From assembly GCF_026210795.1 (NCBI RefSeq), contig NC_089431.1, positions 1,550,001 through 1,614,000 on the forward strand: DNA of 64,000 bases, read 5' to 3'. Shown here piece after piece: positions 2,081 to 58,996 of the stretch. Position 1 is the stretch's first letter. Every line of letters begins with the position of its first letter. The translations under genes were made by a program, and so were the position numbers. Origin of the DNA: Rhizophagus irregularis. Taxonomy: Eukaryota. A model generated the notes under the pieces. It ran no database searches, was not told the origin of the DNA, and saw only the letters and a program-made list of their open reading frames with translations.

Positions 2081-2396
2081 CTGTATTATCATTTATACTT
2101 ATTTTGGAATTTTTTTGCTTCAACATATTATAATATTCTATTATTTTATTAATATGAAAAACAGCGTATTAAAAAAAATGAAATTTGTAATGATAAGAAA
2201 ATTACTATATTCTTTCATGTGCTTGGGTAAGCCTTCCACATATCTAATTAGAAACCAACTGAATCATAGTACTCTGAATTTGGTAAATATTGACATAATT
2301 ACGCTAGATGTGATATCATACCATCTATACTTAATAAATATGGTCTAGTTTTATTTTTAAAGGATCGCTTTTTTCTCATTCCTATTCATTCTCAAA

Positions 2397-3788
2397 ATGA
2401 CAAGGGGATATTCATTAGAACAAGATTTAAAGTTATTAATAGATAATCCAAAATATAGTGATGTAGAAATATTATGTGAGGATGAAAAGAAATTACATGG
2501 TTCTAGAGCAATTTTAGCAGCAAGGTCAGAAGTATTTGACAGATTACTTTACAATGGGACGAAAGAAAACCAAATTTCTTTTCCAAAAATTAATTTTTCT
2601 GGAATGAAAATAATATTAGAATATATTTATACTGGTTCAGTTAAAAAAGAATCTATAAATAAAAACAATATAATTGAAGCTTTTCATGCTGCGGAATATT
2701 TTCAATTACCGAATCTTCAAGAATTTATTATGAAAACTGTTAAAAGTGCTCTAGAAAATAATTACGTGAATAATTATTCACCAGAATTATTATCCAAAGC
2801 TGTGAAAATAATGCCATTATCAGAAGATAATGTTATTATAAATTTATTGGTTGAAGCGGTATCAATTATACCATTAAATACTATTGAATTTGGTCGATTA
2901 TCTATCACAGCACTTCAGCATCTTTTATCATGTACGCATGGAAAAGAAAAATCTTTTGTCACTCCAGAATATGAAGTTTTCCGATATAGTGCTATTCTCG
3001 CAGCGAAACAAGTTTCTAATGATGCATATGAAACTCTTATGGAAAGGTTGCCAATTTTTGAACAAATAAAAAATTCAATACAAGCATCAAATAAACTTAT
3101 AACTGATCATCAAAAAGTCGCAAAAGAATTAGAGCCTTTGACAAAATTTATTGATTTTAGCCGAATAAAAGGACAAATTTTAACAGATATTATTGAACCC
3201 TTAGAAATTGCTCCATCGAAAATAATTATGGATGTTTATCGGCAAATAGCTAAATTAAATAATTTAAATTCAAGTGAAATTCGAGGAATACTACCAACAA
3301 TTTACGTTTGGGATGAATCAGCATGTGGGTCGGACCTTATTATTGAGGATAATGGAAAATTTGTATACGGTAAGAATAATGCACACCAAATTGTTAGAGC
3401 TAAAAGGATACTGGATAATAAAGGAATTTTTGAATGGGATGTTATTATTGAAAAATTTTGTAAAGATGCTTGGATTGGAGTATGTGCAACAGAAAATTTT
3501 AATTACGAAACCTGGCCAGGAAATCAACCTACCGGATGGATATTGGGTACAAATGGTTATTCTTATAATTCTGGTAAGAGGACATTATATTGTCCATCGT
3601 TTCAAAATGATAACGTAAAAGTAACAGTTCATTTAAATATGAATGAAAGAACTTGCGCTTTTTCAGTCAATGGTACAAAATATCCAGTAGTATCAAATTG
3701 GAATAATTTACCATCAAAACTTTATCCAGTAGCATCATTACATTATCCTGGTCGCCTTCGGATTCAGCCTTATCAATTTTTATTATAA
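2397..3788 (+). CDS. BTB/POZ + SPRY(B30.2)/ConA-like domain protein, 463 aa, intronless
   Basis: N-terminal BTB motifs (YSDVEILC..LHGSRAILAARSEVF, ILEYIYTG, AAEYFQLPNL). C-terminal SPRY-like motifs (GIFEWDVIIE, WIGVC, VTVHLNMNERTCAFSVNG, LPSKLYPVASL). Confidence 0.9.
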   Translation: MTRGYSLEQDLKLLIDNPKYSDVEILCEDEKKLHGSRAILAARSEVFDRLLYNGTKENQISFPKINFSGMKIILEYIYTGSVKKESINKNNIIEAFHAAEYFQLPNLQEFIMKTVKSALENNYVNNYSPELLSKAVKIMPLSEDNVIINLLVEAVSIIPLNTIEFGRLSITALQHLLSCTHGKEKSFVTPEYEVFRYSAILAAKQVSNDAYETLMERLPIFEQIKNSIQASNKLITDHQKVAKELEPLTKFIDFSRIKGQILTDIIEPLEIAPSKIIMDVYRQIAKLNNLNSSEIRGILPTIYVWDESACGSDLIIEDNGKFVYGKNNAHQIVRAKRILDNKGIFEWDVIIEKFCKDAWIGVCATENFNYETWPGNQPTGWILGTNGYSYNSGKRTLYCPSFQNDNVKVTVHLNMNERTCAFSVNGTKYPVVSNWNNLPSKLYPVASLHYPGRLRIQPYQFLL

Positions 3789-5760: not shown

Positions 5761-7149
5761 TTATCGAATTATTTGATAAGGCAGAATTCGAAGACGACCA
5801 GGATGACTTATTGATACTACTGGAAAAAGTTTTGACGGTAAATCCTTCACTGATATTTCCTTATACTTTGTACCATCAATTGAAAAAGCACAAGTTTTTT
5901 TATACATATTTAGGTGAACAGTTATTTTTGTATTATCCTTTCTAAATTGTAAACAATAATTTGATCCTTTATTAGAATTCTTAAAATGACCATAGGAACC
6001 TAATACCCAACCGGTAGATTGATATCCTGCCCGCTTTTCATAATCAAAATTTTCTGATGCACATACCCCAACCCAAGTATCAACACAATATTTTTCAATA
6101 ATAACGTTCCATTCAAAAATTCCTTTATAATCTAATGGCATTTTAGCTCTAACACTTAGATGTCCACAACCATCCGGTGCATGCACAACTTTTCCATTGT
6201 CTTCAATTGATCCACATGCTGATTCATCCCAAACATAATCTGATTCTGTAAATTTATACATTGATATTCCTCGAACTCCACTAGGAAATAAATTATTTGA
6301 TTTAGCTATCTGACGATAAACACTTACAATCATATTAGATGGAGTGATTTCTAATGGTTCGATAATATCGGATAAAATTTGACTTTCTATTTGACTAAAA
6401 TCAATAAAATGAGCCAAAGGCTCCAATTCATTGGCAACTTTTTGATGACCAGTAATAGAATTATTACGTACTTGGTTTGAATCCTCTATTTGGTCTAAGG
6501 CCGGTAACTGTTCCATAAGAGTTTCATACGCACCATTAGAAACTTGTTTTGCTGCAAGAATAGCATTATATCGAAAAACTTCATATTCTGGAGTGGCAAA
6601 AGGTTTTTCTTTTTTATACGTGCAGGATAAAAGATGTCGAAGTGCTTTAATAGATAATCGATCAGGTTCAATAGTATCCAATGGTATAATTGATACCGTT
6701 TCAACCAATAAATTTAGAAGAATATTATTTTCTGATAATGACATTATATCCATAATTTTGGATAATAATTCTGGTGAATAATTTTCCAAATAATCCGCAT
6801 TTTTAATAATATTCATAATAAATTCCTGAAGTGATGGTAATTTAAAATTATCTGCAGCATAATAAGTTTCAATTATGTTATTTTTATTTAAAGATTCTTT
6901 ATTAATTGAACCAGTATAAATATATTCTAATATAATATTCATTACGAAAGAATTAATTTTTGGAAAAGAAATTTGGGTTTCTTTCATCCCACTATAAAGT
7001 AATCTGTCAAATACTTCAGACCTTGCCGCTAAAATTGCTCTAGAACCATATAATTTCTTTTCATTTTCACATAATATTTCTATATCGCTACATTTTTCAT
7101 TATCTATTAATAATTTTAAATCTTGTTCTAACGAATATCCTCTCGTCAT
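5761..7149 (-). CDS. BTB/POZ-SPRY family protein
   Basis: ORF track 5761..7311; start placed at the family-conserved MTRGYSLEQ ATG (7149). Same motifs as the 2397 copy. Confidence 0.9.
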   Translation of the reverse strand: MTRGYSLEQDLKLLIDNEKCSDIEILCENEKKLYGSRAILAARSEVFDRLLYSGMKETQISFPKINSFVMNIILEYIYTGSINKESLNKNNIIETYYAADNFKLPSLQEFIMNIIKNADYLENYSPELLSKIMDIMSLSENNILLNLLVETVSIIPLDTIEPDRLSIKALRHLLSCTYKKEKPFATPEYEVFRYNAILAAKQVSNGAYETLMEQLPALDQIEDSNQVRNNSITGHQKVANELEPLAHFIDFSQIESQILSDIIEPLEITPSNMIVSVYRQIAKSNNLFPSGVRGISMYKFTESDYVWDESACGSIEDNGKVVHAPDGCGHLSVRAKMPLDYKGIFEWNVIIEKYCVDTWVGVCASENFDYEKRAGYQSTGWVLGSYGHFKNSNKGSNYCLQFRKDNTKITVHLNMYKKTCAFSIDGTKYKEISVKDLPSKLFPVVSISHPGRLRILPYQIIR

Positions 7150-7604
7150 TTTTGAGAATGAGAGAATTTTTAACCACATAAAAAACGTACAATATGTCCA
7201 ATAAATGTCAAGTAAATGTTCATAATAGGGTCGATTTTCCGAACAAAAAACCGACAGTGTTTGGACAATATTTTTTACAGGGATACTTATCACATGGTAT
7301 TGACGCATCACAATTTAATTTCGAACTTAACAACCCTAAAAAAAAGTAGGATCAAAAGATCAGGCCAACCAAAACAAATCAAATCCAACCGAAAAACCCA
7401 ACCGACCGGGACATAAACAGGCCTTATATTATCCATAATATTGCGAACAGGGCTTTTTCTTAAGAAATTTCAATTTTTAATAAAGAAAAATTCTTATTTC
7501 GTTATCTCAAATATATAGTACATTATCGCTATTCAATTAATAAAAATAATAGTGATTTATTATTCAATAATCAGAAATATATATGATTTTTTTCAAATAT
7601 TCAT

Positions 7605-8528: not shown

Positions 8529-9932
8529 TCAAACTATACTATAAGGCAGAATTCGAATGCGAGCGTGACGGTATAATGATACTACTGGATAAAGTTTTGA
8601 TGGTAATTCCTTCACTGATACTTCCTTATACTTTGTACCATCAACTGAAAAAGCGAAAGTTTTTTTATTCATATCTAGGTGAACAGTTATTTTTGTATTA
8701 TTCTTTTTAAAGTGTGGACAATAATTTGATCTACCACCATTATAATCGCTAATATTACCATCTGTACCTAATGCCCTTGAAGTAGGTTGTCCCACCCACT
8801 TTTCATAATTAAAATTTTCTGATGCACATACCCCAACCCAAGTATTTACACAATGTGTTTCAATAATAACACTCCATTCAAAAATTCCTTTACAATTTAA
8901 TGGCATCTTAGCTCTAACACATTGATGTTGTTCACAACCATTTGGTGCGTACACAACTTTTCCATTATCTTCAATAATAAGTTTCGATCCACACGCTGAT
9001 TTATCCCAAACATAATCTGATTCTTTGAACTTATACATTGTAAATGGTATTCCTCGAATTTCACCTGAAACTAAATTACTTGATTTAGCCATTTTCCGAT
9101 AAACATCCATAATTATTTTTGATGGAGCAATTTCTAAGGGTTCAATAATATCTGTTAAAATTTGTCCTTTTATTCGGCTAAAATTAATAAATTCAACCAA
9201 AGGCTCTAATTCTTTTGCGACTTTTTGATAATCAGGAATAAATTTATTCGATGCTTGTATTGAATTTTTTGTTTGTTCTAAGGCCGGTAACCGTTCCATA
9301 ATAGCTTCATACGCATCATTAGAAACTTGTTTTGCTGCAAGAATAGCACTATATCGAAAAACTTCATATTCTGGAGTGGCAAAAGGTTTTTCCTTTTCAT
9401 ACGTGCAAGATAAAAGATATCGAAGTGCTTTAATAGATAATCGATCAGGTTCAATAGTATCCAATGGTATAATTGATACCGTTTCAACCAATAAATTTAG
9501 AAGAATATTATCTTCTGATAATGGCATTATACCCACAACTTTAGATAATAATTCTGGTGAATAATTTTCCAAATAATCCGCATTTTTAATAGTTGTCAAA
9601 ATAATTTCCTTAAGAGATGGTAATTGGAAATAATCCGCAGCATAAAAGGTTTCAATTATATTATTTTTATTTAAAGATTCTTTTTTAATTGAACCAGTAT
9701 AAATATATTCTAGTATAAATTTCATTACGGAAGAATTAATTTTTGGAAAAGAAATTTGGGTTTCTTTCGTCCCATTGTAAAGTAATCTGTCAAATACTTC
9801 TGACCTTGCTGCTAAAATTGCTCTAGAGCCATGTAATTTCTTTTCATTTTCACATAATATTACGAGATCACTATATTTTTCATTATCTATTAATAACCTT
9901 AAATCTTGTTCTAATGAATTTCCTCTCGTCAT
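8529..9932 (-). CDS. BTB/POZ-SPRY family protein
   Basis: ORF track 8529..10013; start placed at the conserved MTRGNSLEQ ATG (9932). Full BTB and SPRY motifs. Confidence 0.9.
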   Translation of the reverse strand: MTRGNSLEQDLRLLIDNEKYSDLVILCENEKKLHGSRAILAARSEVFDRLLYNGTKETQISFPKINSSVMKFILEYIYTGSIKKESLNKNNIIETFYAADYFQLPSLKEIILTTIKNADYLENYSPELLSKVVGIMPLSEDNILLNLLVETVSIIPLDTIEPDRLSIKALRYLLSCTYEKEKPFATPEYEVFRYSAILAAKQVSNDAYEAIMERLPALEQTKNSIQASNKFIPDYQKVAKELEPLVEFINFSRIKGQILTDIIEPLEIAPSKIIMDVYRKMAKSSNLVSGEIRGIPFTMYKFKESDYVWDKSACGSKLIIEDNGKVVYAPNGCEQHQCVRAKMPLNCKGIFEWSVIIETHCVNTWVGVCASENFNYEKWVGQPTSRALGTDGNISDYNGGRSNYCPHFKKNNTKITVHLDMNKKTFAFSVDGTKYKEVSVKELPSKLYPVVSLYRHARIRILPYSIV

Positions 9933-10071
9933 TTTTGAGAATGAAAATGAGAATGAGAATAAAAAAAAAAATATTAAGGCTAAGCATCTAAGTACGTAAT
10001 AGTGCATCGGCATTTACCAAGTTTAGAATACCATGATCAACAGAAATTTCCCCTAAATTGGATACTCTGCT

Positions 10072-24232: not shown

Positions 24233-24455
24233 AGGACCCCGAGCTATATATATAGAGGTAAAGGTACAGCCAAAAAAAATTACTATTAGCTCTACGCACT
24301 TTTTCAGGGCCGGAATTACAATAATGCCAGTCAGTGTCTAAAAAAGGAAATAAAATCCGGCCGGAATTATCTATAAAAGGAAAGATCTACATAATTATTT
24401 TTGTCAATTCTACGCAAACCCTTACCATACCTTTTTATGTATAGCTCGGGGTCCT
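24233..24455. mobile_element. MITE (AGGACCC...GGGTCCT family), copy 2
   Basis: TIRs aggaccccgagctata / tatagctcggggtcct. Internal tacgca.tttttcagggccggaatta..ataatgccagtc is shared with copy 1. Flanks aatttttc / aattttca. Confidence 0.85.
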
Positions 24456-24810
24456 AATTTTCAATGATTAATTTGTCAACGATCATATTGCCGACAACTA
24501 CTTCACCCGTTCACTGATATGTTCATTTCATCAATGATAATTTCAAAGAACTGTAACCCTGACGGAGAAGTGATTGTCATGACACACTGGTGAATTGAAC
24601 CCGTGATATATTATGTATGTGATAAAAATTTTAGTGCAACTGGCGCAATTAGGCGCACCTGCAGCAAACACTGTTAAACAATACGGTTATTGTATCATCG
24701 ATGAAGAATAAAATACATCTGATTTTTTATTTTCACGTATATCTGATATTTTCTTTTTAAATTTTATACTGTAATTCATTTTCTGACAATAACAATAAGT
24801 TAAAGGCAAA

Positions 24811-27800
24811 ATGGATGAAATTGGTAACCATAATTTCTTTTAATATTTTTATTAATAAACTGTTAAGTTTAAATGCAACAATAGAAATAGATACTTAATA
24901 TTTTATTTTAATAATAAAACTTTTATTCTAAAATTAAATATCTGTAGAGAGTAAGTTATTTAATTTTTATTGTATTATTTATGTTGTTTACATATAACTT
25001 AACTAACTTTTTATCTAAAAATATTTGATGATATTACAGTTGGTAAGTTATTTAATATTTATTGTATTATTTATGTTATTTACATGTAACTTAACTAACT
25101 TTTTATCTAAAATTAAATATCTGTAGAGAGTAGGTTATTTAATTTTTATTGTATAATTTATGTTGTTTACATGTAACTTAACTAACTTTTTATCTAAAAT
25201 TAAATATCTGTAGAGAGTAAGTTATTTAATTTCTATTGTATTATTTATGTTGTTTACATGTAACTTAACTAACTTTTTATCATATTTGTAGAGTGTAAGT
25301 TATTTAATTTCTATTGTATTATTTATGTTGTTTACATGTAATTTAACTAACTTTTTATCTAAAAAAATTTGATGATATTACAGTTGGTAAGTTATTTAAT
25401 TTTTATAGTATTGTTTACAGTATGTTGTTTACATGTAACTTAATCAACTTTTTATCTAAATTAAATATCTGTAGAGAGTAGGTTATTTAATTTTTATTGT
25501 ATTATTTACAGTATGTTGTTTACATGTAATTTAACTAACTTTTTATCTAAAATTAAATATCTGTAGAGAGTAAGTTATTTAATTTCTATTGTATTATTTA
25601 TGTTGTTTACATGTAACTTTACTAATTTTTATCTAAAATTAAATATCTGTAGAGCGTAAGTTATTTAATCTCTATTGTATTATTTATGTTGTTTATATGT
25701 AATTTAACTAACTTTTTATCTAAAATTAAATATCTGTAGAGAGTAAGTTATTTAATTTTTATTGTATTATTTATGTTGTTTACATATAACTTAACTAACT
25801 TTTTATCTAAAAATATTTGATGATATTATAGTTGGTAAGTTTATTTAATTTTTATAGTATTATTTACAGTATGTTGTTTACATGTAACTTAACTAACTTT
25901 TTATCTAAAATTAAATATCTGTAGGGCGTAAGTTATTTAATTTCTATTGTATTATTTATGTTGTTTACATATAACTTAACTTAACTTTTTATCTAAAAAT
26001 ATTTGATGATATTACAGTTGGTAAGCTATTTAGTTTTTTTGTATTATTTACAGTATATTGTTTACATGTAATTTAACCAACTTTTTATCTAAAATTAAAT
26101 ATCTGTAGGGCGTAAGTTATTTAATTTCTATTGTATTATTTATGTTGTTTACATGTAATTTAAATATTTGATGATATTATAGCTAGTAAGTTATTTAATT
26201 TTTATTGTATTATTTACAGTATGTTGCTTACATGTAACTTAACTAACTTTTTATCTAAAAATATTTGATGATATTACAGTTAGTAAGTTATTTAATTTTT
26301 ATAGTATTATTTACAGTATGTTGTTTACATGTAATTTAACTAACTTTTTATCTAAAAATATTTGATGATATTACAGTTGGTAAGTTATTTAATTTTTATA
26401 GTATTATTTACAATATGTTGTTTACATGTAACTTAACTAACTTTTTATCTAAAAATATTTGATGATATTACAGCTGGTAAGTTATTTAATTTTTTTTGTA
26501 TTATTTATAGTATGTTGTTTACATGTAATTTAACTAACTTTTTATCTAAAAATATTTGATGATATTACAGCTAGTAAGTTATTTGGTTTTTATTGTATTA
26601 TTTACAGTATGTTGTTTATGTATAACTTAACTAACTTTTTATCTAAAATTAAATATCTGTAGTTTGTAAGTTATTTAATTTCTATTATATTATGTTGTTT
26701 ACATGTAATTTAACTAACTTTTTATCTAAAAATATTTGATGATATTACAGCTAGTAAGTTATTTGATTTTTATTGTATTATTTACAGTATGTTGTTTACA
26801 TGTAACTTAACTAACTTTTTATCTAAAATTAAATATCTGTAGTTTGTAAGTTATTTAATTTTTATTGTATTATTTATGTTGTTAAATATAACTAACTAAC
26901 TTTTTATCAAAAAACATTTGATGGTATTACAGTGGGTAAGTAATTTAATTTCTATTGTATTATTTATATTGTTTACATATAATTTAACTAACTTTTTAAA
27001 TATCTGTAGATCGTAAGTAATTTAATTTCTATTGTATTACAGTATTTATGTTGTTTACATGTAACTTAACTAACTTTTTATCTAAAATTAAATATCTGTA
27101 GATAGTAAGTTATTTAATTTCTATTATATTATTTATGTTGTTTACATGTAATTTAACTAACTTTTTATCTAAAATTAAATATCTGTAGAGTGTAAGTAAT
27201 TTAATTTCTATTGTATTATTTATGTTGTTAAATATAACTAACTTTTTATCTAAAATTAAATATCTGTAGATCGTAAGTAATTTAATTTCTATTGTATTAT
27301 TTATATTGTTTACATATAATTTAACTAACTTTTTATCTAAAATTAAATATCTGTAGATCGTAAGTAATTTAATTTCTATTGTATTATTTATATTGTTTAC
27401 ATATAATTTAACTAACTTTTTATCTAAAATCAAATATCTGTAGAGTGTAAGTTATTTAATTCTTGTTGTACTATTTATGATATTTATATATAATAGTTTA
27501 AACTAATTTTTATAAAAAAATATTTAATGATATTACAGTTAGTAGGTTATTTAATTTCTATTGTATTATTTGTGTTTATTTACATTTAATAGTTTAAATT
27601 TAACTAACTTTTATAAAATAATATTTGATAATATTACAGTTGGTAAGTTATTTAACTTTTAGTATATTATTTATGTTGTTTACTTGCAATAATTTAAATT
27701 TAACTAGATAATTTCTATTGAATATTTGTAATTCTCTAAATTTAATTAAATTACAATTGCTTAATTTTTGCTTTAAAAGATTTAACTGTAATGAAATCTT

Positions 27801-30800
27801 TAGAAGAAAAGAATTCAAAATGGCATATTTCTATTAGTTCAGATGGAAAGTATTTTCTTACAATTAATCATGGTAAATATATATTTATTATATTACTTTT
27901 ATTATAATTCAAATATATTTTTACAAAATAATTTTATTTTTTTCTTATATTATTAAAGAAACTCATGAGTTTAATATTTATGATAAGATTAATAGTGATA
28001 AACCAATCAATTCCTATAATTTTAAAGAGGATTTTAAAAATAATCAAGAATTACAATCTACAGAATATGCTATTCCAAAATGGATGTTAGCTATATCAAA
28101 TTGCATTGATCAAAAATTTGTTTTTGTGGCAATATCTTGTGTAACAAAATTTGATATGTTAACTGAGAAAAGTGAGAAAATTGAAACAGAAAATTTAAAT
28201 AATTTATTAAAAGAAGATAATTTATTAAATAGTGCAGAATCTTTTGCAATTGGAATTGGAGATACAAATAAAGATCAAGAAAAAGAAGGGCAAAAAAATA
28301 ATATAAGTAAAAAATCAGGAATTACTATTATTTATAAAGTAACTTTAAATGATGGTAAAGTTCATAGGAATCCTATACATTATAATACTAGTGGAGTTGT
28401 TACTTTTATCCATAAAGAATCCACTTCTAATAAGATATTGAATTGTTTTATTTTTAATGCTAATGGAATTTATAAATTTACATGTGAAAATAATTCAAAA
28501 GATGATTTAAAGCATTTTAACTATCCAAGAAGATTTATGATTGAATTAAATACTTTATATAAGACAAAACCTTGTACATCACAATTAATAAATTGTGTCT
28601 TTGATCATTATTTTTATACAGTACAATACAAAGAAGGAATTCAAGTTATGCAATTATATGACTTAAAAACTATGCAAATACAACAAAATTTTAATATGCA
28701 TGAAGAATATTCAAATATATATGGCAAACCAATATTAGCTATTTCAAAAAATAGGCAAATGATTGCTTTTTCTTCTGGATATAGAAAATTAACCCTTTAT
28801 CTTATAGAAAATGGTTTAGAAATTGCTAGTAATGATTTTGGAAAAAATGTTAAAATAATTGATTGTCAATTTGAAAATAGTGATTCATTAATGATAATTA
28901 TTAAAAAGTCCCAGAAAGAATATGGAGAAATGCTATTTTGGAATTTATATGATTCTTCTACAAATAGATTTCATTATTACAATAAATTAAAAATTGATGA
29001 TAAGTTTACCTTACATATTGCAAGAATTCCTGATAAATTAGTATTAGTAAGAAATAATGGTTCCATATTATCAGTATATGATCATATACTTAAGAAAGAA
29101 AAGAAGAAGTCAAATAATTTAAATCATTATAAAATGCCAAATGAAATGAATGAATTTAAATATGAAGATCATAAAGATAACCAAAATATTTCAAAAGCTG
29201 AACAGCCTTTTGGACATAATAAAGAACCATGGATAAATGATAACTTTAAAAGAAAATTAGTATATCTTAATAATGATAAATCATTACAGTTATATATTGG
29301 AAAAAGTACCATTCAAGTATGGCGTAAGAAAAAAGAATATTTAACACTTGAATATATTTGGGCTCATAACGTTGAAGAAGAATCTAAAGATAATGCATTG
29401 GAAGAATTAGATTTAAGAGTTTCTAATAATAATGGTTTTTATCTTAAAGTTAAATGGAATGAATTTATTAAGGAAATTCAATGGCCATATGATAATAATG
29501 CTATTCCAACAATACATGCTTGTAATACTCTTGAATATTTACATTATCAACGGAATAAATTAGTTGGTGACAATAATCAGTGTGGTAAGTGTTTTTTTTA
29601 TATATTTTGTTATTTTGTATTTAATTATTTTTATTAAAAAATTCTATTTTTTATAATATAGTATTTGAAGAAATTAAGTATAATATTTCTTTTATTATCT
29701 GGAAATTTATCAAAAATTATCCTGATATTTGGAGATTAATGGATATCCGATATAACCTAATGGCAAAAATTATAATTGGAGGCTCAAATGCTCTTGTTAA
29801 ATATATTTTATTTGGTGATGAAAAAGTAAAACACAAAAATTTGCATATACCAAGAATAACTCGATGGATTGATGAAGAATTTAATGAAATTAGTAAAGAA
29901 TCTAATGATAATAGTGAATCAAATAAATCTAATAGCAATATTATTGATATTTGTAAATTAAGTGATTTAGAAATTGCAATTAATTTGTGTATATCAGGTA
30001 ATTATTATTTCTAAAAATCTTAAAATTTGATATTTGATTAATAAATATTTTTTATAGATCTTGAACGAAATCGTAGAATTTTAATTGTAACTTATTTACT
30101 TGAATATTATGCAAAAAATGCAACTAAACATCTTGGATGGTTAATTACTATTTCAAAAGCATTACCATCTTTATATTCTTATAAATTAGGTTTGTAATTT
30201 CATTTTTACAGTTATTATTAATTATAATCTGTTTTTAATATTTTTAAAAATTTCTTTTATAAATAGAATATTATGTAAAAGAATTATTTTATAAAAAATG
30301 TATGGAAGGTATAGAAATATCTAATATTATTGAATATAGTGATATTATACCTAAAAAAATTCAAGATACTTTAAATGATAACCAAAAGTTTCAAGCATTT
30401 AATCCTATTTCAGAACTTATTTTAAAAAGAAATGAAAAGCGAAAATTCCAAGCATTTAATTCTATCTCAAAATTTATTTTGTTAAAAATATTTAAGATAA
30501 AAAGTATTTCAAGTAATTATTCTCCAACCGTGAAAATGATTCCTTTACATAATTTTACAACTAGCAAAATACCTCAAAAAGAAAAAAAAGGTTGGCTTAA
30601 TAAATATATCTTTACAATTAAACTATTTCAATTATTATTTATTCCACATAGTTATTTGGTTAGCTATTCAAATGATGCAAAAAATCTCTCACAACTTAGT
30701 CCACTTGTTCAAATTATTAGATTAGATAATAGCGATGATATATTTAATAATCCAGTAATGGAAGCTGCAATTAACTATAAATGGCCTTCAGCAAGAAATT

Positions 30801-32334
30801 ATTTTCTCAGACTCTTTTTTATATATATTCTATTTGCAATTTGCTTTGCAGTTATTTGTGGAACTTATACAGCACACCTTGAAGCAACAGGACATCTCTG
30901 CAATTTCCTATTATTTCTTATTATCATTTTTTATTATTTAGGATGCTATTTATTAGTTGTAGAATTGATGCAGATAAGACATCGTGGTTTGAGGCATTAT
31001 CTTGATTTTTTTAACTTTGTAGATTTAACTTCAGCTATTGTAGCTATAGTTGTAATGTCAGTTTATATTGCTCCTTCATTTAGTACTGAAAATACATTTG
31101 CTAATGTTGTAACAACTAAAGAAACAGCTGTTGCAATTTCTTTTACAATGTTATTACTTTGGTTTGAATTTGTATGTACTGTATTTTTATATTTTTTTAC
31201 TAAAACATTTTGATTAAAATAAACTAACTTTTTTATATGTAAATCTTTCGATTCAGATTTTATATCTTCGGTTATTTAAAGGTAATACTATAAAATATAA
31301 AAATAATATAAAATATTAAATTATTAAGTTTAAATATATTAATTTATATTAATTTATTTAGAACCAGCAAAATATATTTATATTATATTAAATATTATTA
31401 AAAGTACATGGGTATTTCTTGTTTTCATGTTTCTTGTAATAGTTGGATTAGCACATACCTTTTTACTATTATTGCAATATCCTGATTTTATAAATCTTTC
31501 TGAGAACTCATCAAATGAAACAATAGATAACCCAGCCAAAGAATTTATTACCTCATTCCTTTCAACATATGGATGGTTAAGTGGTACTTTTTTACAACAA
31601 GATACATGGAACTTTTGGGCAGTTAAACTCATAACTCTTATTGCTAGTATTTTCTTAGTAACTATTTTACAAAATATGTTCATTGCTTTTATGGGGTAAG
31701 TTTCTTTTTTTTCTTTTTAAATTCTGCAATATATCAATTACTTTTATTCCTTTAATAAATTAATGATTTTATTAGGGGTGTGTACTCTGAAGCATATGAA
31801 AAAGGTCGTGCTGCATTATTGAGATTTCGTGCAGAATTAATTTCAGATTATGAAGCATTAGATGATATACATTTTTATACACTACCACCAGAACCAAAAT
31901 ATATTTATTATATAGGTAAATCAGAAAGTTGTGAAGAATGGGAAACAAATGTTAAAAAGCGTCAAACTAACAAAGAAAAATTATATGATGATTATGAAAA
32001 GAAAATGAGTGAAAGAAAATTAACATATAAAGAGAATGATGATGATAATAAAGATCATAATAAAGATGACGATAATAAAGATCATAATAAAGATGATGAT
32101 AATAAAGATGATAAAGATGATGATGATGATGATGATGATGATGGTGATGATGATTATGAAAGTGAAGATGAAGATGAAGATGTTATAGACAAGGTTAAGT
32201 CACTTAGTAATAAAGTTAAAGAAGAATTTAAATTTCTTAAGAAAGAAATAGAAGAGGTTAAATCACTTAAGGAAGATATTAAATCACTTAATAGTAAGAT
32301 TGATCAATTGTTAAATAATAAGAATACAAATTGA
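24811..32334 (+). CDS. TRP-like cation-channel family protein with beta-propeller-like N-terminal region; predicted start exon 24811-24823, 31 three-nt micro-exons, then exons 27780-27872, 27959-29584, 29662-29997, 30058-30189, 30267-31171, 31257-31281, 31362-31695, 31776-32334
   Basis: All junctions from 27780 on are GT..AG and phase-consistent. Multiple TM helices (FLRLFFIYILFAICF.., YLLVVELMQI, FNFVDL, LLWFEFILYLRLF), pore/S6 and TRP-like ..ILQNMFIAFMGGVYSEAYEKGRAALLRFRAELI. WD-like ISSDGKYF and LAISKNRQMIAF. Acidic tail plus coiled coil. The 5' micro-exon part is less certain than the body. Confidence 0.85.
24930..27700 (+). repeat. Tandem array of ~31 units (74-101 bp), each a complete GT-AG intron plus a 3-nt exon
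   Basis: Unit: gtaagttatttaattt(t/c)tattgtattattta..tgttgtttacatgtaacttaactaactttttatctaaaa + (ttaaatatctgtag | atatttgatgatattacag) + NNN. Confidence 0.95.
32038..32182 (+). repeat. Coding acidic repeat (DDDNKDHNK)n / (GAT)n
   Basis: gatgatgataataaagatcataataaa units and a GAT run within the last channel exon. Confidence 0.9.
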
Positions 32335-38625: not shown

Positions 38626-39443
38626 AATGGTGCGGTAAACTGTGATAGTAACGGTTAAAGTGTTATTTAAAATTGCGCGTTATATTAGGATAAATTTCGA
38701 AATTCGTTCTGATTAATAGTTATTTTTATGATTATAAATTATCTAAGAATGTCTGAAAGAAAATTCTATTTTATCCGATTCTTTGAAAATGGTCGAATAT
38801 ATAAACTTTTTCGTTATATTTTAAATAGCCATGCAGTTCTGAGAAAATTTTATACATTACTAATAGTATCAGCATAACCATTTCACTCATTTCACACAAT
38901 TTCACAATCGCAGACTACTAAGTAATATCTTCTAGAAAGAAATTGCCAATTGCAAAGTTGCTTCTTTTAAATCAGTGGTGTGCTTGGAAGGTTTCTGATA
39001 ACTTTTATTGGAATTGGAAGGCATGTTGGAAGATTTGAAGTTCCAATATATCATGTGCGTTGAAAGCTTCCAATACTTTCAAAACTTCCAAGTTCCAATT
39101 ATATATCCATGAAAAATTTTTAAATAGATAAAAATTTTTCTCAAACGTTTCTTTTATTTTACATTTACCAACTTAAAAACAATGACCGCTAAAAGAAAAC
39201 ATAAACCTAAAACCATCGTCTATTCGCCTAACACAGTACTTAGCAAACAAAATAATCGGAAATAACCGTTTTAATATCTAACGAAGTTTAAATCAGTAAA
39301 TCATATGGTTTAATTGGATAATGGAATTCTTCAATAGGTTGATCATAATTACGTCATGTTTACCATGTTTACCATATTTAGAATATTTATTACGTACAAA
39401 TTTTAAATTTTTGATTTTTTTTCGCTCATTCTCGTTCTTAAAA

Positions 39444-40841
39444 ATGACGAAAGGATATTCATTAGAACAAGATTTAAGGTTATTAATGAATAATGAAAAA
39501 TATAGTGATATAGAAATAATATGTGAAAATGAAAAGAAATTACATGGTTCTAGAGTAATCTTAGCAGCAAGGTCAGAAGTATTTGACAGATTACTTTATA
39601 GGACGAAAGAAAATCGAATTTCTTTTTCAAACATTAATTTCTCCGTAATGAAAATTATATTAGAATATATTTATACTGGTTCAATTAAAAAAGAATCTTT
39701 AGATAGAAATAATATAATTGAAACCTTTTATGCTGCGGGTCATTTTCAATTACCATCTCTTCAGGAATTTATTCTGGCATCTATTAAGAATGCGAGTTAT
39801 TTAGAAAATTATTCACCAGAATTGTTATCCAAAATTGTGGATATAATGCCATTATCAGAAGATAATATTCTTCTAAATTTATTGGTTGAAACAGTATCAA
39901 TTATATCATTGGATACTATTGAACATGGTCGATTATCTATTAAAGCACTTCGACATCTTTTATCTTGTACTTATAAAAAAGAAAAACCCTTTGCCACTCC
40001 AGAATATGAAGTTTTTCGATATAGTGCTATTCTTGCTGCAAAACAAGTTTCTAATGATGCATATGAAAATATTATGGAACGGTTACCGGCCTTAGATCAA
40101 ATAAAAAATTCAAATCAAGTACAAAACAATTCTATTACTGATCATCAAAAAATTGAAAAGGAATTGGAGCCTTTGACTCATTTCATTGATTTTAGTCAAA
40201 TAGAAAGACAAATTTTAACTGATTTTATCGAACCATTAGGAATCACTTCATCAAATTTGATTTTAAATGTCTATCGTCAAATAGTTAAATCAAATAATTT
40301 ATATTCTAGTGGAATACGAGGAATATCAATGTATAAATTTAAAGAGTCAAATTATGTTTGGGATGAATCAGCATGTGGACCCAAACTTATTTTTGAAGAT
40401 AATGGAAAAGTTGTGTACGCGCCAGATGGTTGTGGACATCAAAGTGTTAGAGCTAAAATGCCATTAGATTATAAAGGAATTTTTGAATGGAGCGTCATTA
40501 TTGAAAAATATTGTGTAAATGCTTGGGTTGGGGTATGTGCATCAGAAAATTTTAGTTTTGAATGGTGGGCGGGATGTCAACCTACTGGATGGGCTTTAGG
40601 CACTTGTGGTTACTTCCATAATTCTAACAAGGTATTGAAGTATTGCTCACAATTTCAAAATAATGACATTAAAGTAACAGTTCATTTAAATATGTATAAA
40701 AAAACTTGCGCTTTTTCGGTTAATGATATGATGTATAAGGAAATATCAGTGAAAGATTTACCGTCAAAACTTTACCCAGTAGTATCATTAAAGAATAATG
40801 GTCGCCTTCGAATTCTGCCTTATCAAAAAGTAAATTTTTGA
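39444..40841 (+). CDS. BTB/POZ-SPRY family protein
   Basis: ORF track 39321..40841; start placed at the conserved MTKGYSLEQ ATG (39444). Confidence 0.9.
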   Translation: MTKGYSLEQDLRLLMNNEKYSDIEIICENEKKLHGSRVILAARSEVFDRLLYRTKENRISFSNINFSVMKIILEYIYTGSIKKESLDRNNIIETFYAAGHFQLPSLQEFILASIKNASYLENYSPELLSKIVDIMPLSEDNILLNLLVETVSIISLDTIEHGRLSIKALRHLLSCTYKKEKPFATPEYEVFRYSAILAAKQVSNDAYENIMERLPALDQIKNSNQVQNNSITDHQKIEKELEPLTHFIDFSQIERQILTDFIEPLGITSSNLILNVYRQIVKSNNLYSSGIRGISMYKFKESNYVWDESACGPKLIFEDNGKVVYAPDGCGHQSVRAKMPLDYKGIFEWSVIIEKYCVNAWVGVCASENFSFEWWAGCQPTGWALGTCGYFHNSNKVLKYCSQFQNNDIKVTVHLNMYKKTCAFSVNDMMYKEISVKDLPSKLYPVVSLKNNGRLRILPYQKVNF

Positions 40842-47934: not shown

Positions 47935-48899
47935 TATAAAAATTAATATTCAAGTAGAATCAACCCGCCTGAACAACTTTCAATTAATAAATGAAGTTGA
48001 TTTCATTTGTCCAAAGTAGATATATTACGCTCTAAATTAAAAAAACAGAAAAGAGAGTTAATATCGTTAAGAAAAATGCAATTTTCTTTAAGCACTACAC
48101 CTACATTCATAAAAATTAATATTCAAGTAGAATCAATCCACCTGAACAATTTTTAATTAATAAATAAAGTTGATTTCATTTGTCCAAAGTGGAGATATTA
48201 CGCTCTAAATTAAAAAAACAGAAAAGATAGAGAGTTAATATCATCAAGAAAAATGCAATCTTCTCTAAGCACTACACCTATATTCATGAAAATTAATATT
48301 CAAGTAGAATCAACCCACCTGAACAACTTTCAATTAATAAATGAAGTTGATTTCATTTGTCCAAAGTGGAGATATTACGCTCTAATTAAAAAAAAACAGA
48401 AAAGAGAGTTAATATCATCAAGAAAAATGCAATCTTCTCTAAGTACTACACCTATATTCATGAAAATTAATATTCAAGCAGAATCAACCCACCTGAACAA
48501 CTTTCAATTAATAAATGAAGTTGATTTCATTTGTCCAAAGTGGAGATATTACGCTCTAAATTAAAAAAACAGAAAAGAGAGTTAATATCATCAAGAAAAA
48601 TGCAATCTTCTTTAAGCACTACACCTATATTCATGAAAATTAATATTCAAGTAGAATCAACCCGCCTGAACAACTTTCAATTAATAAATAAAGTTGATTT
48701 CATTTGTCCAAAGTGAAGATATTACGCTCTAAATTAAAAAAAAAAACAGAAAAGAGAGTTAATATCATCAAGAAAAATGCAATCTTCTCTAAGCACTACA
48801 TCTACATTCATGAAAATTAATATTCAAGTGCTTTTAACCCGCCTGAACAACTTTCAATTAATAAATAAAGTTGATTTCATTTGTCCAAAGTGGAGATTA
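47935..48899. repeat. Tandem repeat, ~5.5 copies of 173-177 bp
   Basis: attaatattcaag recurs at 47942, 48115, 48292, 48466, 48639 and 48816. Confidence 0.95.
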
Positions 48900-53468: not shown

Positions 53469-53491
53469 ATACCCTTTAAATATTATCTTTA

Positions 53492-56400
53492 ATGATGAAC
53501 AATAAAAAAACACATTCTTTTAAGAAAAAACATTATAATAATCCTTCCCCTGTTAATCAAAAATCACGTTCAAATTTAAATAATCAACAAATTTATCGTC
53601 CGAAAACACGTCAACGACTCAATTTATCAGATATAATTAAAATAGCTTCATTGAATATTAAAGGTATAACTGATGTTAAAAAACAATTCTTAATTGATAT
53701 ATTAGGTGAATATAATATAACTATTTTGGGTCTATCAGAAACTAATATATCGAACAAAATGGCAAAACATTCTTTTAATTTTTATAGAAATAATTATGTT
53801 ACTTATTTTGCAAATGAGGAAACTAATTATAGGGGAAATGGCGTAGGTCTTATTATTAAGAAAAATTATGCACGGCATATAGTCAATTATAATAGCTTCA
53901 AAGGAAGAATTATATATGTTGATTTTATTTTTAGTGGAAATAAAAAAATGAGAATCATTAATTATTATGGAAAATCTGGACGAGTTACTTTAGACAATTT
54001 TAATCAAGAAGTTAAAATTTATTTTGATAAAATCAAAGAATTGGTTAGAGAAAGTAAAGCACAAAATGCAGAAATTATTCTTCTTGGTGATTTTAATCTT
54101 CATTATGAAAAATATCTGGATGATAAAAATAATAATCGTAAAATGAAAAAAGAACATAAACTTTTTGAATGGATTGAAGATGAACAAAATTTTTATGATC
54201 CTTTCTATATCATGTTCGATAATTTATCACAACATTTCTTAAATACTTTCTATCCTTTTAATACAAATCAAAATCCTTCTAGAATAGATTACATTTGGGT
54301 AACAGAAAATTTATTTTCAGAAACACAAGAATGCAAAATTGTTAATACAACAACAATTAATACTGATCATAGAATGTTAGTGTATTCAATATGGTCAGAA
54401 GATTTGATTGGGAATATTGCTAATATCAAACGGAAGGAAGGATTTAAAGAAGTTTATAAGTATGATAAAATGGATGGAGAGCAGTGGGAATTATTTCAGA
54501 ATGATCTTAATAAATACATTTCAAATTCAGAAATTTTAAAATTTAATTTTAACGATAAAAATAATATTAATCATATATGGGATAAGATCAAAAAAGGTCT
54601 TGTTCAAGCTAGTAAAAATTGTATTCCAATAGAAAAAATCAAATTAACTAAAAGTCGAGTCAACCCAATGAAAATATCTAATGCATATAAAGTAATGAAA
54701 TTTTTAATAAATTTCAGACGTTCAATTAAAGATTCAAGAAAAAGAAATCATGTGATCAGAAATTGGATTACATATAGAAAAAAATTATTGGAAATTGGAA
54801 GAGAAAAAAGTGATTATTGTTGGAATAAAATTCCTAAGGATGATAAAAGTGTCAAGGAAATTTTTGAAGAAATAAAAAATTTATATCAAATTTATTTAAT
54901 CCTATATAATCACGATCTTTTACAATTCAAAGAAGAAAAAATTAAACTAGCAATTGACCAACGCTGTGAAGATTTATTAGAAAATCAAAAACGTATGATT
55001 AATAGTGTAATGGAACGTGAAATTAAATCCATTGTATTAGACAGAGTTCTAATTAAAGAAAATAATGAAGATAAATTAATCACTGATGAAGAAAAAATAA
55101 AAGATATTGTAAATGATCATTTTCAAAATATTGCAGGATCAACAAACCAACCTAAGATTTTATCAGAATATTAGGCAAAATTTTATTTTCCACAAGATGA
55201 AATTAATGATAAAATTTATAAAGATTTGATGGTAGAGCCTACAAATGATGAATTGAATGAAGCTTTAAATAAATTATCTAATAATAAAGCTTCTGGACCT
55301 ACGGGTATTAGTAATGAAATGTTGAAACACACATCTCCAGAATTTAAAGAAATTATTAGAAAATTAATTATTTTAATTTTTAATAATCAAGAGATACCAT
55401 TAGAATGGAAATATGCTAATGTTTATCCTATACCAAAACCAAAGCCATGGGGTTGTCAACTAGTTAATACACGCCCAATAACTTTATTGGAAACGGCTAG
55501 GAAATTAATGGTATCAATAATGAATGCAAGATTATCAACAATTCTTCAGAAAAACAAAATTCTTAAAGGTTTACAATTTGCTGGATTGCCTTTCAGTTCA
55601 ACTTTTGAACCATTAAGAATTATTAATGAAATAATTCAAGATGCTAATGAGAATGATAAGGAACTGTGGATTTTATCATTAGACATGTCAAAAGCGTATG
55701 ATCGTGTTAATATTTTTATGTTAGAAAAAGCAATGCAACGTCTTAAAATACCAAGTTCTTTTATTAATTTAACAAAAAAGTTGTTTTTAGGACGGAAAAA
55801 TAGTGTATTTACAGCAGGAGGATTAAGTAATCCATATGATGTAATGGTTGGAATCGATCAAGGGGAAATAATCTCACCACTTTTGTGGTGTATATATTAT
55901 GATCCACTTCTTACTGCCATACAGCAAGAACACTTTGGATATCGTGTAAAGGCAAAAAAGAAAATCAATTTATATGAAAATATAGAGGTAGAAGTAAAAC
56001 AAAATATTACCAGCATGGCATATATGGATGATACTAATATGTTAGCTGGCAATAAAGAAGAATTAGAAAAAATATTAAAAACAGCTGATGACTTCTATAC
56101 TCTTAACGATATTCAAATAAATAAAGAAAAATCTGAATTGTTACTTAAGAAAAAGAATTTTAATTTTAATGAAAAAATAGAGTTAGAATTTGGCAATCAG
56201 AAAATCAAAATCAAACCTAAAGGAAAAACAGAAAGTCTTAGAATCTTGGGTGTTTGGTTCAATATATATAATGATAACAATTTTATCAAACAACAAGCCT
56301 TTGATGAAGTCAAAAATTTAAGTAATAACCTGCTGAAGAACAAATGCATAACAGATAAAATTAGTTCCTATATTTTTAATGCTGTAATATTACCACGTAT

Positions 56401-58996
56401 CGAATATAGGACACAAACGATAATACTATCAGAAAAAGATTGTGAAAAAATCATGGTTCCTTATAGAAAAAATTTTAAAAATAAATTAAAGTTAGCTTCA
56501 ACTGCACCAAATATAATTATGGAATTGAATTTATTATATAATATTCGTTCAATTTTTGATAATCAATTGCAAGCTAAGGTTAATAATTTTATAATTCAAA
56601 TTAATGATCAAGGAATTCTAGGAAAAATAATGGAGATTCGTTTAGTAGATATTCAAAATAAACTACTTTTACCTTTCAATCCTTTAATTAATTTTCCTTT
56701 TTCTAATAAAGATTTAATCTTTATGGGTCAACATTTGCGAAATAATTTTATTATTAATAATTTATTATTAATGAAAAGTTATAATTTTAGTATAGAATTT
56801 AATAAACACAATATTGGGAAAAATAGTACTGTATTAGGAAGGGGACGTCATATTATGGAAATTGTTGGAACTGAAAGTTTTTTGAAAAATATAAAAATTT
56901 TACGTATGAATAATTTATACTTTTTGGACCAATTTTTATCTCCTGATAACAAAACTCTTCTGACATGGTGGAATATAAAAAATAAGATATTTGCTCTTAG
57001 TAATAATAGAAATAGTAATGTAGTTAATACGCCAAATATATATAAAAAAATTCAGTCTTTAGTTACAACTAATGGAAAAAATTATAATGTTAAAGAGGAA
57101 TATATAGATAATAATGTAGTCACAAATTTGGGTGGTTATGAATTTTTACCAATTAATATTCATATTAATAATATTATAACATCTTTTAATATGTTTCATT
57201 TTGAAAATATTTATGGAAAAATAATTGAAGAAAAGCCCTTTACATATATTTTTGAACATTTTAAAAGAATATCGAACACAAGTGAAATTAATTTGTTTAT
57301 TAAAGTATGTAATGGTTGTGAATATAATATTGGTCAAATAGAGGGTAAATGTATAATAGAATCAATGAAAACTGAAATATATGAAGTGAGATATAAAAGA
57401 CTTATTAAATGGAAGGGATATAAGGCATATCTTCTAAAGAAAGCACAACATAATTATATGGAAAATATTATAAGATATGATCAATTTTTTAAACGAAACC
57501 CTTTATATTACTCTTCATATGATAATTATCAATTACGTTTTGATGAAAATAGTTTAGATATTATTGAAAAATATATAGATTTATCATTAGATAAACAGAA
57601 ATTATTTGATTCAAGAAAAATTTTATATGATTCAAATGTTAAAGATTTTGTTTGCTATACAGATGGTTCAATTAAAGATATTACCAAAGAATATGTATCA
57701 GCTACTTTTGGAACAACTTTTTATAATTTGTCCTTGCAAAAAATTTTGGAATTAATATCATCTTATAATAATTGGATTTCATCAACACGTGCAGAAATTT
57801 TTGCTTTATTAATTACTTTGCTAATAGCACCTTCTAATAGTAATTTAACAGTTTATACAGATAGTGCTAGCGTTATTAGTAATTTTGAAAAATTTAAATT
57901 TTATAATTTTACTTTAGTTACTAGACAAATTTTTAAAATTAGTAATAACAACATTCTTTGGAAAATAATTATGGATATTATTAAAGAAAATAATTTATCT
58001 GTTAATATATTTAAAGTTAATGCTCATACAGATAATTCTTTAAATAATTATGTCGACAATATTGTTTCTTTGGTACATAATGATCAAAATTTAGGCATTA
58101 ATTTAAATTATAATAATTTTTATGATCTTCCTTGGATTCCCAAATGGAATGGCATAGTTATAGAAAAATCTTTAAGAAAGTTAATTACATTAACAACCAA
58201 TACGAAAAATTTGGAAAGGTTTTTAAATTTAAATAGAAATGATAAGTATAGAAAATGTGAAATAGATTGGTCAATTTTTTTTAATAATTTTTTGGGAGAA
58301 AAACAAAAATTATACACTGATTTCAAAGAATCAAAAATTAGAAGACGCAAAATTCAGTTGATGATTGAAGAACTTCCTTGCATTGAACAAATTAAAAGAA
58401 CTTTATTTTCATTATATAAAGAAAGGTTTTGTCCTATGTGTGAAGAGGATGAAGAAGATTTCAATCATATCTGGTTTTGTGAAGAAAGACGAGAGGATAT
58501 GGATGATTTAATTTCAGGAGTACAAAATTGGCTTCTTTTAGAAATTAATAAAATTTTAGATCCTATTAATCATATTACTCTTGAACATATTAAAAATCTC
58601 AATGATATTTGGAAACTTGAAGTATCAGAGGATCACATAACTTTCATAGATTTAATTAAAGGTTTCTTTCCTTGTTCGTTAATTAATTTTTTTAAACAAT
58701 TATTATCTACGAAATCAAAAGTTGAAATTTTGTCATATAATTTTAGGAATGAAATTTTGGATAAATCTATGATTTTTTGGAAAGTGAGGTGTAATAAACT
58801 TAATGAAATTGATAGAGGTTTGGGAATTGATAAAAATGTTAAAAAACAACATTTTGGTAAAGAGCAGTTTATTGACAAAACGCGTAAATCAAAAAATAAG
58901 AAATACTTTAATCTACAAAGTCTTCAAAGTCATATTTATTTTGGGGGTAATACAATAGATTACTATAATATTGTTGATTACGGTAGTGTTTCGTAG
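53492..58996 (+). pseudogene. LINE ORF2 (AP endonuclease, reverse transcriptase, RNase H, C-terminal Zn finger) with one in-frame TAG at 55172-55174
   Basis: APE: ASLNIKG, GLSET, LGDFN, SRIDYIW, TDH. RT: RPITLL, LDMSKAYD, GIDQGEIISPLLW, AYMDD. RNase H: YTDGS, RAE, YTDS, KVNAH..N..VD. Zn finger: CPMC..HIWFC. Copy 2 has TGG at the stop position. Confidence 0.93.

What the first reader, a model, noticed from the sequence alone, without database searches (positions are those of the whole stretch)
24948..27642. Phase-1 3-nt exons could act as a combinatorial protein-diversification device
Seen: variation is concentrated in the 3-nt slots (12 different triplets) while the flanking repeat is conserved, superficially like repeat/spacer arrays. 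Each codon takes the last base of one exon and the first two of the next. Skipping any subset therefore keeps the frame but rewrites the junction codon. Joining a T-ending exon to an AG-starting exon would make TAG. None of the five T-ending exons is followed by one of the ten AG-starting exons, which is only weak support (roughly 1 in 7 by chance). Inference: alternative splicing could generate many N-terminal variants or stop/NMD isoforms of a sensory channel.
Basis: inference. Interest (0 to 1): 0.8.

Follow-up and report, generated by a model that had tools for sequence, protein, structure and literature searches.

The report
Spliced three-base exon array, mycorrhizal channel
A channel-like gene of a root-symbiotic fungus carries 31 three-base exons in a row, about ten of which are seen joined in one RNA-type contig; they likely encode a fast-changing front end of the protein, while the proposed mix-and-match skipping, reported for truffle genes, remains untested here.

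Summary
At 24948-27642, 31 three-base slots (12 triplets) lie between 30 intron-like spacers of 71-98 nt, upstream of a TRPV-like gene identical to a Rhizophagus irregularis protein. One spliced contig (run X3) carries, 5' of acceptor 27780, 30 letters equal to the predicted join of the last ten slots, so the microexons are real. All 8 database versions of the protein start downstream and miss them. Slots vary 4.6 times more than flanks, and the introns are recombinant mosaics. Combinatorial skipping is not shown: the only isoform seen includes slots 23-31 without a skip, and the link to the upstream ATG exon was not covered. The architecture is known from Tuber nank NLR genes (secondary citations read), and this scan found it before on other DNA. 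I found 24 more distinct arrays in metagenomes, some before Glomeromycota-type kinases. New here: Glomeromycota, a channel host, an N-terminal position, and phase-1 geometry, which would rewrite rather than merely delete codons on skipping. Verdict: new variant of a known kind.

The parts
24811..24823 (+). Predicted first coding exon (ATG plus 4 codons and 1 base; phase-1 donor at 24824)
   Evidence: in frame with the slots and the downstream gene. No RNA cover, so the link is inferred.
24824..24947 (+). Diverged first intron (124 nt) whose 3' end matches the type-A acceptor of the array
   Evidence: inferred
24948..27642 (+). Array of 31 three-base phase-1 exons separated by 30 near-identical introns of 71-98 nt (two acceptor types, 18 A and 13 B)
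26843..27642 (+). Slots 22-31: the part seen joined in RNA (23-31 unambiguous; the 22nd could also be its duplicate, slot 20)
   Evidence: loose end of run X3 equals the tail predicted, 30 of 30 letters
27643..27779 (+). Last intron of the array (137 nt, GT..AG), removed in RNA
27780..27872 (+). First ordinary exon; holds the in-frame ATG 27791 at which database proteins start
27959..32334 (+). Rest of the TRPV-like gene: exons 27959-29584, 29662-29997, 30058-30189, 30267-31171, 31257-31281, 31362-31695, 31776-32334; beta-rich N-terminal region, then helical and membrane region
   Evidence: identical to P0023, 1332 aa; introns 27873-27958 and 29585-29661 seen spliced; TRPV5/6 match E about 1e-6; low-confidence model

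Best explanation
This is a real array of 31 spliced three-base exons at the front of a TRPV-like gene of Rhizophagus irregularis, which likely encodes a 39-residue N-terminal extension whose sequence is likely varied mainly at the DNA level, by duplication and recombination of intron-plus-slot cassettes and by fast substitution in the slots. Each short intron carries its own donor, branch-like motif and acceptor, so it would be removed on its own (intron definition; inferred). The main mRNA includes the slots one after another (shown for the last nine to ten). Each codon is made from the last base of one slot and the first two of the next. Unequal crossing-over in the middle of the near-identical introns would add, remove or swap single slots without shifting the frame, and would rewrite junction codons. 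Skipping in RNA would have the same effect and may add minor isoforms, but is not shown. The extension is predicted to have a charged start and an 11-residue hydrophobic stretch, and to sit just before a beta-rich, probably propeller-like cytosolic region.
For: Shown: layout. Shown: a spliced contig with 0 other letters, one GT..AG intron skipped, and a 5' tail matching the joined slots 30 of 30, where the longest contiguous DNA match is 11. Shown: slot mismatch 4.6 times the flanks. Shown: 12 of 19 intron pairs at least 95% identical differ in the downstream slot, and all four combinations of 5' intron marker and 3' acceptor type occur. Shown: 29 of 30 introns would put a stop in frame if retained. 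Class-level coding signal: 0 of 396 slots in 26 variable metagenome arrays is a stop triplet, against about 27 expected (filter caveat). Host; a group of 32 TRPV-like genes is reported in this species (PMC10234402, passages). Hydropathy.
Against: Only one contig of one run shows the join; its RNA status is the tool's guess, backed by the skipped intron; only 30 of its 47 loose letters were printed. The stop-free order alone is weak (P = 0.14). All 8 database versions start at ATG 27791, and the diverged allele P0001 keeps that Met. No alleles of the array from other isolates were seen, so DNA-level turnover between strains is inferred from one copy. In Tuber the reported mechanism is alternative splicing, not DNA turnover.
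Confidence: 0.55

Rival explanations
1. One reading: the array is mainly a combinatorial splicing device. Each transcript skips a different subset of slots, which gives many N-terminal variants and some stop isoforms.
For: Precedent in Tuber nank genes, described as extensive alternative splicing of tens of codon-sized exons (secondary passages only). Geometry allows it: 28 peptides from 31 single skips, and 69% of subsets stop-free. The X3 contig ends exactly on a slot boundary (47+1 = 16 slots), as a branch in the assembly graph would, but this has a 1-in-3 chance anyway.
Against: The one isoform seen has nine consecutive slots with no skip. Near-identical strong splice sites on short introns favour removal one by one (inference). 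Contigs drop rare variants, so the absence of a second isoform is weak either way.
Confidence: 0.25
2. The slots are spliced but lie in the 5' leader; translation starts at ATG 27791 as annotated, and the array acts through intron load or not at all.
For: 8 of 8 database versions start there, and the C2 allele keeps the Met. No RNA link to the upstream ATG exon was seen (no cover, so not evidence of absence).
Against: The upstream ATG exon, all 31 slots and exon 27780 are in one open frame. Several paralogs have comparable extra N-terminal length before the conserved WHISIS-type motif. Variable arrays elsewhere avoid stop triplets. Aligners miss 3-nt exons (established knowledge), which explains the annotation.
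Confidence: 0.1
3. Neutral expansion: one intron-plus-codon unit was amplified like a minisatellite and is tolerated because splicing removes it and the frame is kept; slot variation reflects only constraint on the splice signals.
For: Clear tandem duplication blocks and mosaic units. The flanking columns next to the slot are splice consensus and so constrained. 36 of 108 metagenome hits are invariant-slot repeats.
Against: Slots vary more than inner, non-consensus intron columns (0 of 151 windows as variable). 8 of 12 one-base triplet neighbours can never be silent within the array's alphabet (weak). Arrays recur beside NLR-type, GTPase-like and kinase genes.
Confidence: 0.1

Closest known systems
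Codon-sized (3-bp) mini-exon arrays of the Tuber melanosporum nank (NACHT-ankyrin) NLR genes (Iotti et al. 2012, not held; seen through passages of PMC4986451, PMC13449251, PMC9815663, PMC10197012)
   Same: Dozens of 3-bp exons in a row, spliced into mRNA, in a member of an expanded fungal gene family.
   Different: The host is a TRPV-like channel gene, not an NLR. The position is N-terminal, not the C-terminal sensor. The lineage is Glomeromycota. The exons are phase 1; the phase and intron similarity in Tuber were not given in the passages read. Alternative splicing is reported for Tuber but not shown here.
Schistosoma micro-exon genes (MEGs; PMC10526429, abstract only)
   Same: Runs of very short exons (3-81 bp per the abstract) in highly variable proteins.
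   Different: MEGs have long introns (up to 5 kb) and encode secreted proteins largely made of micro-exons. Here the introns are 71-98 nt near-identical repeats, and the slots give about 32 of about 1371 codons.
High-internal-conservation repeat arrays of fungal NLRs, reshuffled by unequal crossing-over (PMC9815663 and PMC13449251, passages)
   Same: Near-identical tandem units that recombine and so reshuffle a variable protein surface.
   Different: There the unit is a coding WD/TPR/ANK repeat. Here the homology lies in introns and the payload is three bases.
TRPV-like ion-transport genes of R. irregularis (group of 32 genes, PMC10234402, passages)
   Same: Host gene matches TRPV5/6 (E about 1e-6) and is named 'Ion transport domain-containing' by UniRef.
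   Different: No microexon array is mentioned in the passages found for 'exon' and 'splic'. Whether this gene is one of the 32 listed was not checked.

Membership tests
Tuber nank-type codon-sized mini-exon arrays | Tens of consecutive 3-bp exons | tested here: met
   31 slots
Tuber nank-type codon-sized mini-exon arrays | Mini-exons spliced into mRNA | tested here: met
   Last nine to ten slots joined in one contig
Tuber nank-type codon-sized mini-exon arrays | Extensive alternative splicing | tested here: inconclusive
   One isoform, no skip, very low depth; upstream exon not covered
Tuber nank-type codon-sized mini-exon arrays | Host is a NACHT-ankyrin NLR | tested here: not met
   No NACHT or ANK match in Pfam for P0001/P0002; TRPV match
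Tuber nank-type codon-sized mini-exon arrays | Diversifies the C-terminal recognition domain | tested here: not met
   Array lies 5' of the whole annotated gene
Schistosoma MEGs | Short symmetric exons | tested here: met
   All 3 nt, phase 1 on both sides
Schistosoma MEGs | Long introns; secreted protein mostly built from micro-exons | tested here: not met
   Introns 71-98 nt; membrane protein of over 1300 aa
TRP-type channels | Sequence relationship of the membrane region to TRP channels | tested here: met
   Profile A1 hits TRPV6/5 at E 1e-6 to 6e-5; PKD_channel below its cut-off for P0001
TRP-type channels | Six-helix membrane fold with pore loop | tested here: inconclusive
   Model region 670-1066 has pLDDT under 50, and P0002 is shorter than the full gene
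TRP-type channels | Cation conductance and sensory gating | not testable with these tools
   Needs electrophysiology
Satellite DNA without function | Units not processed as introns | tested here: not met
   Spacers are removed precisely in RNA

The most novel reading that the evidence does not exclude
Arbuscular mycorrhizal fungi use phase-1 three-base exon arrays as a portable codon-rewriting module: placed in front of channels and kinases, they let splicing, as well as recombination, compose new N-terminal peptides whose codons exist nowhere in the genome, and the module is hidden from current annotations.
Probability: 0.25. Interest if true: 0.85.

Novelty: new variant of a known kind. Interest (0 to 1): 0.6.

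Why it matters
It shows by RNA that about ten consecutive 3-nt exons are spliced in a model symbiont, in a gene whose public versions all lack them. R. irregularis has rich isolate genomes and RNA data, so the open question about these arrays (does the diversity come from splicing, from recombination, or both?) becomes testable with existing reads and one amplicon. It extends the truffle architecture to Glomeromycota and to non-NLR hosts. In phase 1, a skip creates a new codon instead of only deleting one.

Tried and rejected
No whole genome was held, so paralogous arrays in this genome were not surveyed. The run search listed no holder on record as RNA: no RNA holder listed, not evidence either way. 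Raw polyA runs X23 and X24 gave only 2 reads each at 99% or more identity and none at the array junction. The upstream stretch 24300-24900 had no cover over the ATG exon in 4 of 4 runs, which is uninformative. Acceptor 27804, first considered, is replaced by 27780 on RNA evidence. Pfam found 0 families in 5 window ORFs. The AlphaFold model is weak (mean pLDDT 47); its Foldseek hits are large complexes with TM about 0.1 whose chains I recognise from recall as WD40 proteins, so the propeller reading is a hint only. Shared ancestry of the window introns with the AT-rich kinase-array introns: 8 of 8 loci scored above their shuffle mean and 7 of 8 above the shuffle maximum, but one ordinary intron of the gene scored as high (0.36), and five control introns were cut with slightly wrong ends; suggestive only. 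No fetched protein (0 of 178) holds a 6-residue piece of the predicted extension. CRISPR-like or introner readings were rejected: the units are tandem spliceosomal introns, with no dispersed copy in the window beyond short AT-rich hits of 21-35 nt. Literature searches listed no paper on such arrays in Glomeromycota; the library lacks most subscription papers, and no supplements were read.

Full report
OBSERVATION. The stretch 24948-27642 is a tandem array that parses into 31 three-base slots, each between YAG and GTRAG; no other such site exists on either strand of the window. The 30 spacers are 71-98 nt; 26 start GTAAGT and 24 hold CTAAC; mean identity is 0.84. There are 12 triplets and two acceptor types (18 A, 13 B), and most triplets track the type.

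HOST GENE. Downstream lies an eight-exon gene whose translation from ATG 27791 is identical to P0023, a 1332-aa Rhizophagus irregularis protein. All 22 relatives found are from Rhizophagus, Funneliformis or Glomus. A 26-sequence profile matches TRPV6/5 at E 1e-6 to 6e-5. A group of 32 TRPV-like genes is reported in this species (PMC10234402, passages). The AlphaFold model is weak (mean pLDDT 47) but shows a beta-strand-rich first 480 residues followed by helices; the propeller reading is a hint only. An upstream 13-nt ATG exon (24811-24823), the 31 slots and exon 27780 form one open phase-1 frame that would add 39 residues. All 8 database versions of this gene start at ATG 27791, and none of 178 fetched proteins holds a piece of the extension.

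RNA TEST. Four runs were laid on 27720-29720. In run X3 a 252-nt contig (depth 8.8, 0 other letters) skips the GT..AG intron 27873-27958 and has 47 loose letters before 27779. The 30 letters printed equal the tail predicted from the window by joining the slots (compared by reading the two outputs, 30 of 30), while the longest piece of the joined slots found contiguous in window DNA is 11. So slots 23-31, plus one TTT slot (22, or its duplicate 20), are joined without a gap and spliced to acceptor 27780. The other three runs did not cover this junction. The run's RNA status is the tool's guess, backed by the skipped intron; a processed copy in DNA would also imply earlier splicing. No second isoform was seen. 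The contig ends exactly on a slot boundary, which would fit a splice branch but has a 1-in-3 chance anyway.

VARIATION. Within acceptor type, slots mismatch at 0.47 per site against 0.10 in flanks; 0 of 151 inner three-column intron windows are as variable; 8 minimum changes are seen against 2.0 expected (P about 0.001; units are not independent). Of 19 intron pairs at least 95% identical, 12 differ in the following slot. A 5-base insertion and a second marker in the 5' half of the introns occur in all four combinations with the 3' acceptor type, while the insertion follows the preceding acceptor type in 9 of 10 cases. This points to a cassette 'acceptor-slot-donor' that is reshuffled by crossing-over in mid-intron (inference). 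Skipping arithmetic: 31 single skips give 28 peptides and 1 stop; 69% of subsets are stop-free; 29 of 30 introns would stop the frame if retained.

RELATED LOCI. Of these, 44 had chains under 5 slots, 36 were invariant-slot repeats, 2 were variable but TAAG-microsatellites (1 and 9 stop slots; dropped), and 26 were variable arrays, 24 distinct because L103 and L104 lie within L074. In the 26, 0 of 396 slots is a stop triplet against about 27 expected. The microsatellite filter is not independent of TAA slots, but the kept arrays also differ from the dropped ones in having almost no extra donor words per spacer. Pfam on 15 ORFs from 12 loci named NACHT-type genes (2 loci), kinases (2) and weak GTPase-like hits (2); the rest stayed unnamed or had one weak hit. 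Many higher-GC arrays have stops in phase 1 and so read as phase 0. The AT-rich kinase arrays fit phase 1 best, though not uniquely, and the L069 kinase is Glomeromycota-like.

MECHANISM. Shown: real consecutive 3-nt exons, excess slot variation, mosaic units. Inferred: translation of the extension, removal of each intron on its own, turnover between isolates, and any role in sensing. I put most weight (0.55) on a coding N-terminal segment varied mainly at the DNA level with largely complete inclusion; 0.25 on combinatorial skipping as the main mode; 0.1 each on a non-coding leader and on neutral expansion. The first two are not exclusive.

KNOWN SYSTEMS. The closest is the Tuber melanosporum nank family, described as diversified by alternative splicing of tens of codon-sized exons (passages in PMC4986451; PMC13449251, which calls it lineage-specific; PMC9815663; PMC10197012). 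I recalled this precedent first and then checked it; the primary paper was not held. The array works like these in layout but is not a member: the host is not a NACHT-ankyrin gene, the position is N-terminal, and alternative splicing is unproven. Schistosome MEGs differ in intron length and protein type (abstract). Eight searches listed nothing on such arrays in Glomeromycota; subscription papers and supplements were not seen. This scan noted similar arrays before in other fungi and protists, two with RNA support by their own account; look-ups for this sequence, this genome and mycorrhizal terms returned none.

VERDICT. A real and striking feature, confirmed by RNA, of a kind already known from truffle. 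The variant is new in lineage, host, position and phase. The headline claim of combinatorial diversification is plausible and directly testable but not shown. Interest 0.6; 0.85 if the phase-1 codon-rewriting reading (probability 0.25) holds.

Noticed in passing
L043:3428-5718, L026:4365-6974: Variable three-base arrays directly 3' of a NACHT gene (L043) and of a hydrolase-NACHT-ankyrin gene (L026), the layout reported for Tuber nank.
   Followed up: partly
L006, L019, L048, L069: AT-rich arrays 5' of kinase genes. For L069, the 5 taxon-named hits among 120 listed are Funneliformis or Rhizophagus. Phase 1 fits best in L006, L019 and L069, but other acceptors are also open.
   Followed up: partly
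L033, L042: Arrays 3' of small GTPase-like ORFs (weak Pfam hits below cut-off).
   Followed up: partly
L011, L020, L073 and window 24817-24825: An exon upstream of these AT-rich arrays ends in a similar short motif before a phase-1-looking donor, as does the window's ATG exon.
   Followed up: no
L014, L067: Long chains with nearly invariant slots (45 x GGA; 27 mostly ACT/ACA) and no extra donor words; satellite or homopolymer-coding arrays, unresolved.
   Followed up: no
window 53827-58513 and 59314-64000: A 4687-bp direct duplication at 99.3% identity covering a LINE-like element (label recalled). Its two long ORFs, 53480-55174 and 55175-58996, are in one frame, split by a single TAG.
   Followed up: no
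window 2361-3788, 5761-7314, 8529-10013, 39300-40841: Four paralogous ORFs, 80-86% identical in DNA, that look like BTB-domain genes (label recalled, not scanned).
   Followed up: no
window 47939-48897: A 177-bp tandem repeat, 5.5 copies, 93% matches.
   Followed up: no
window 28069-28071: Two X3 contigs end and begin one base apart, as at an assembly bubble (possible variant or error).
   Followed up: no
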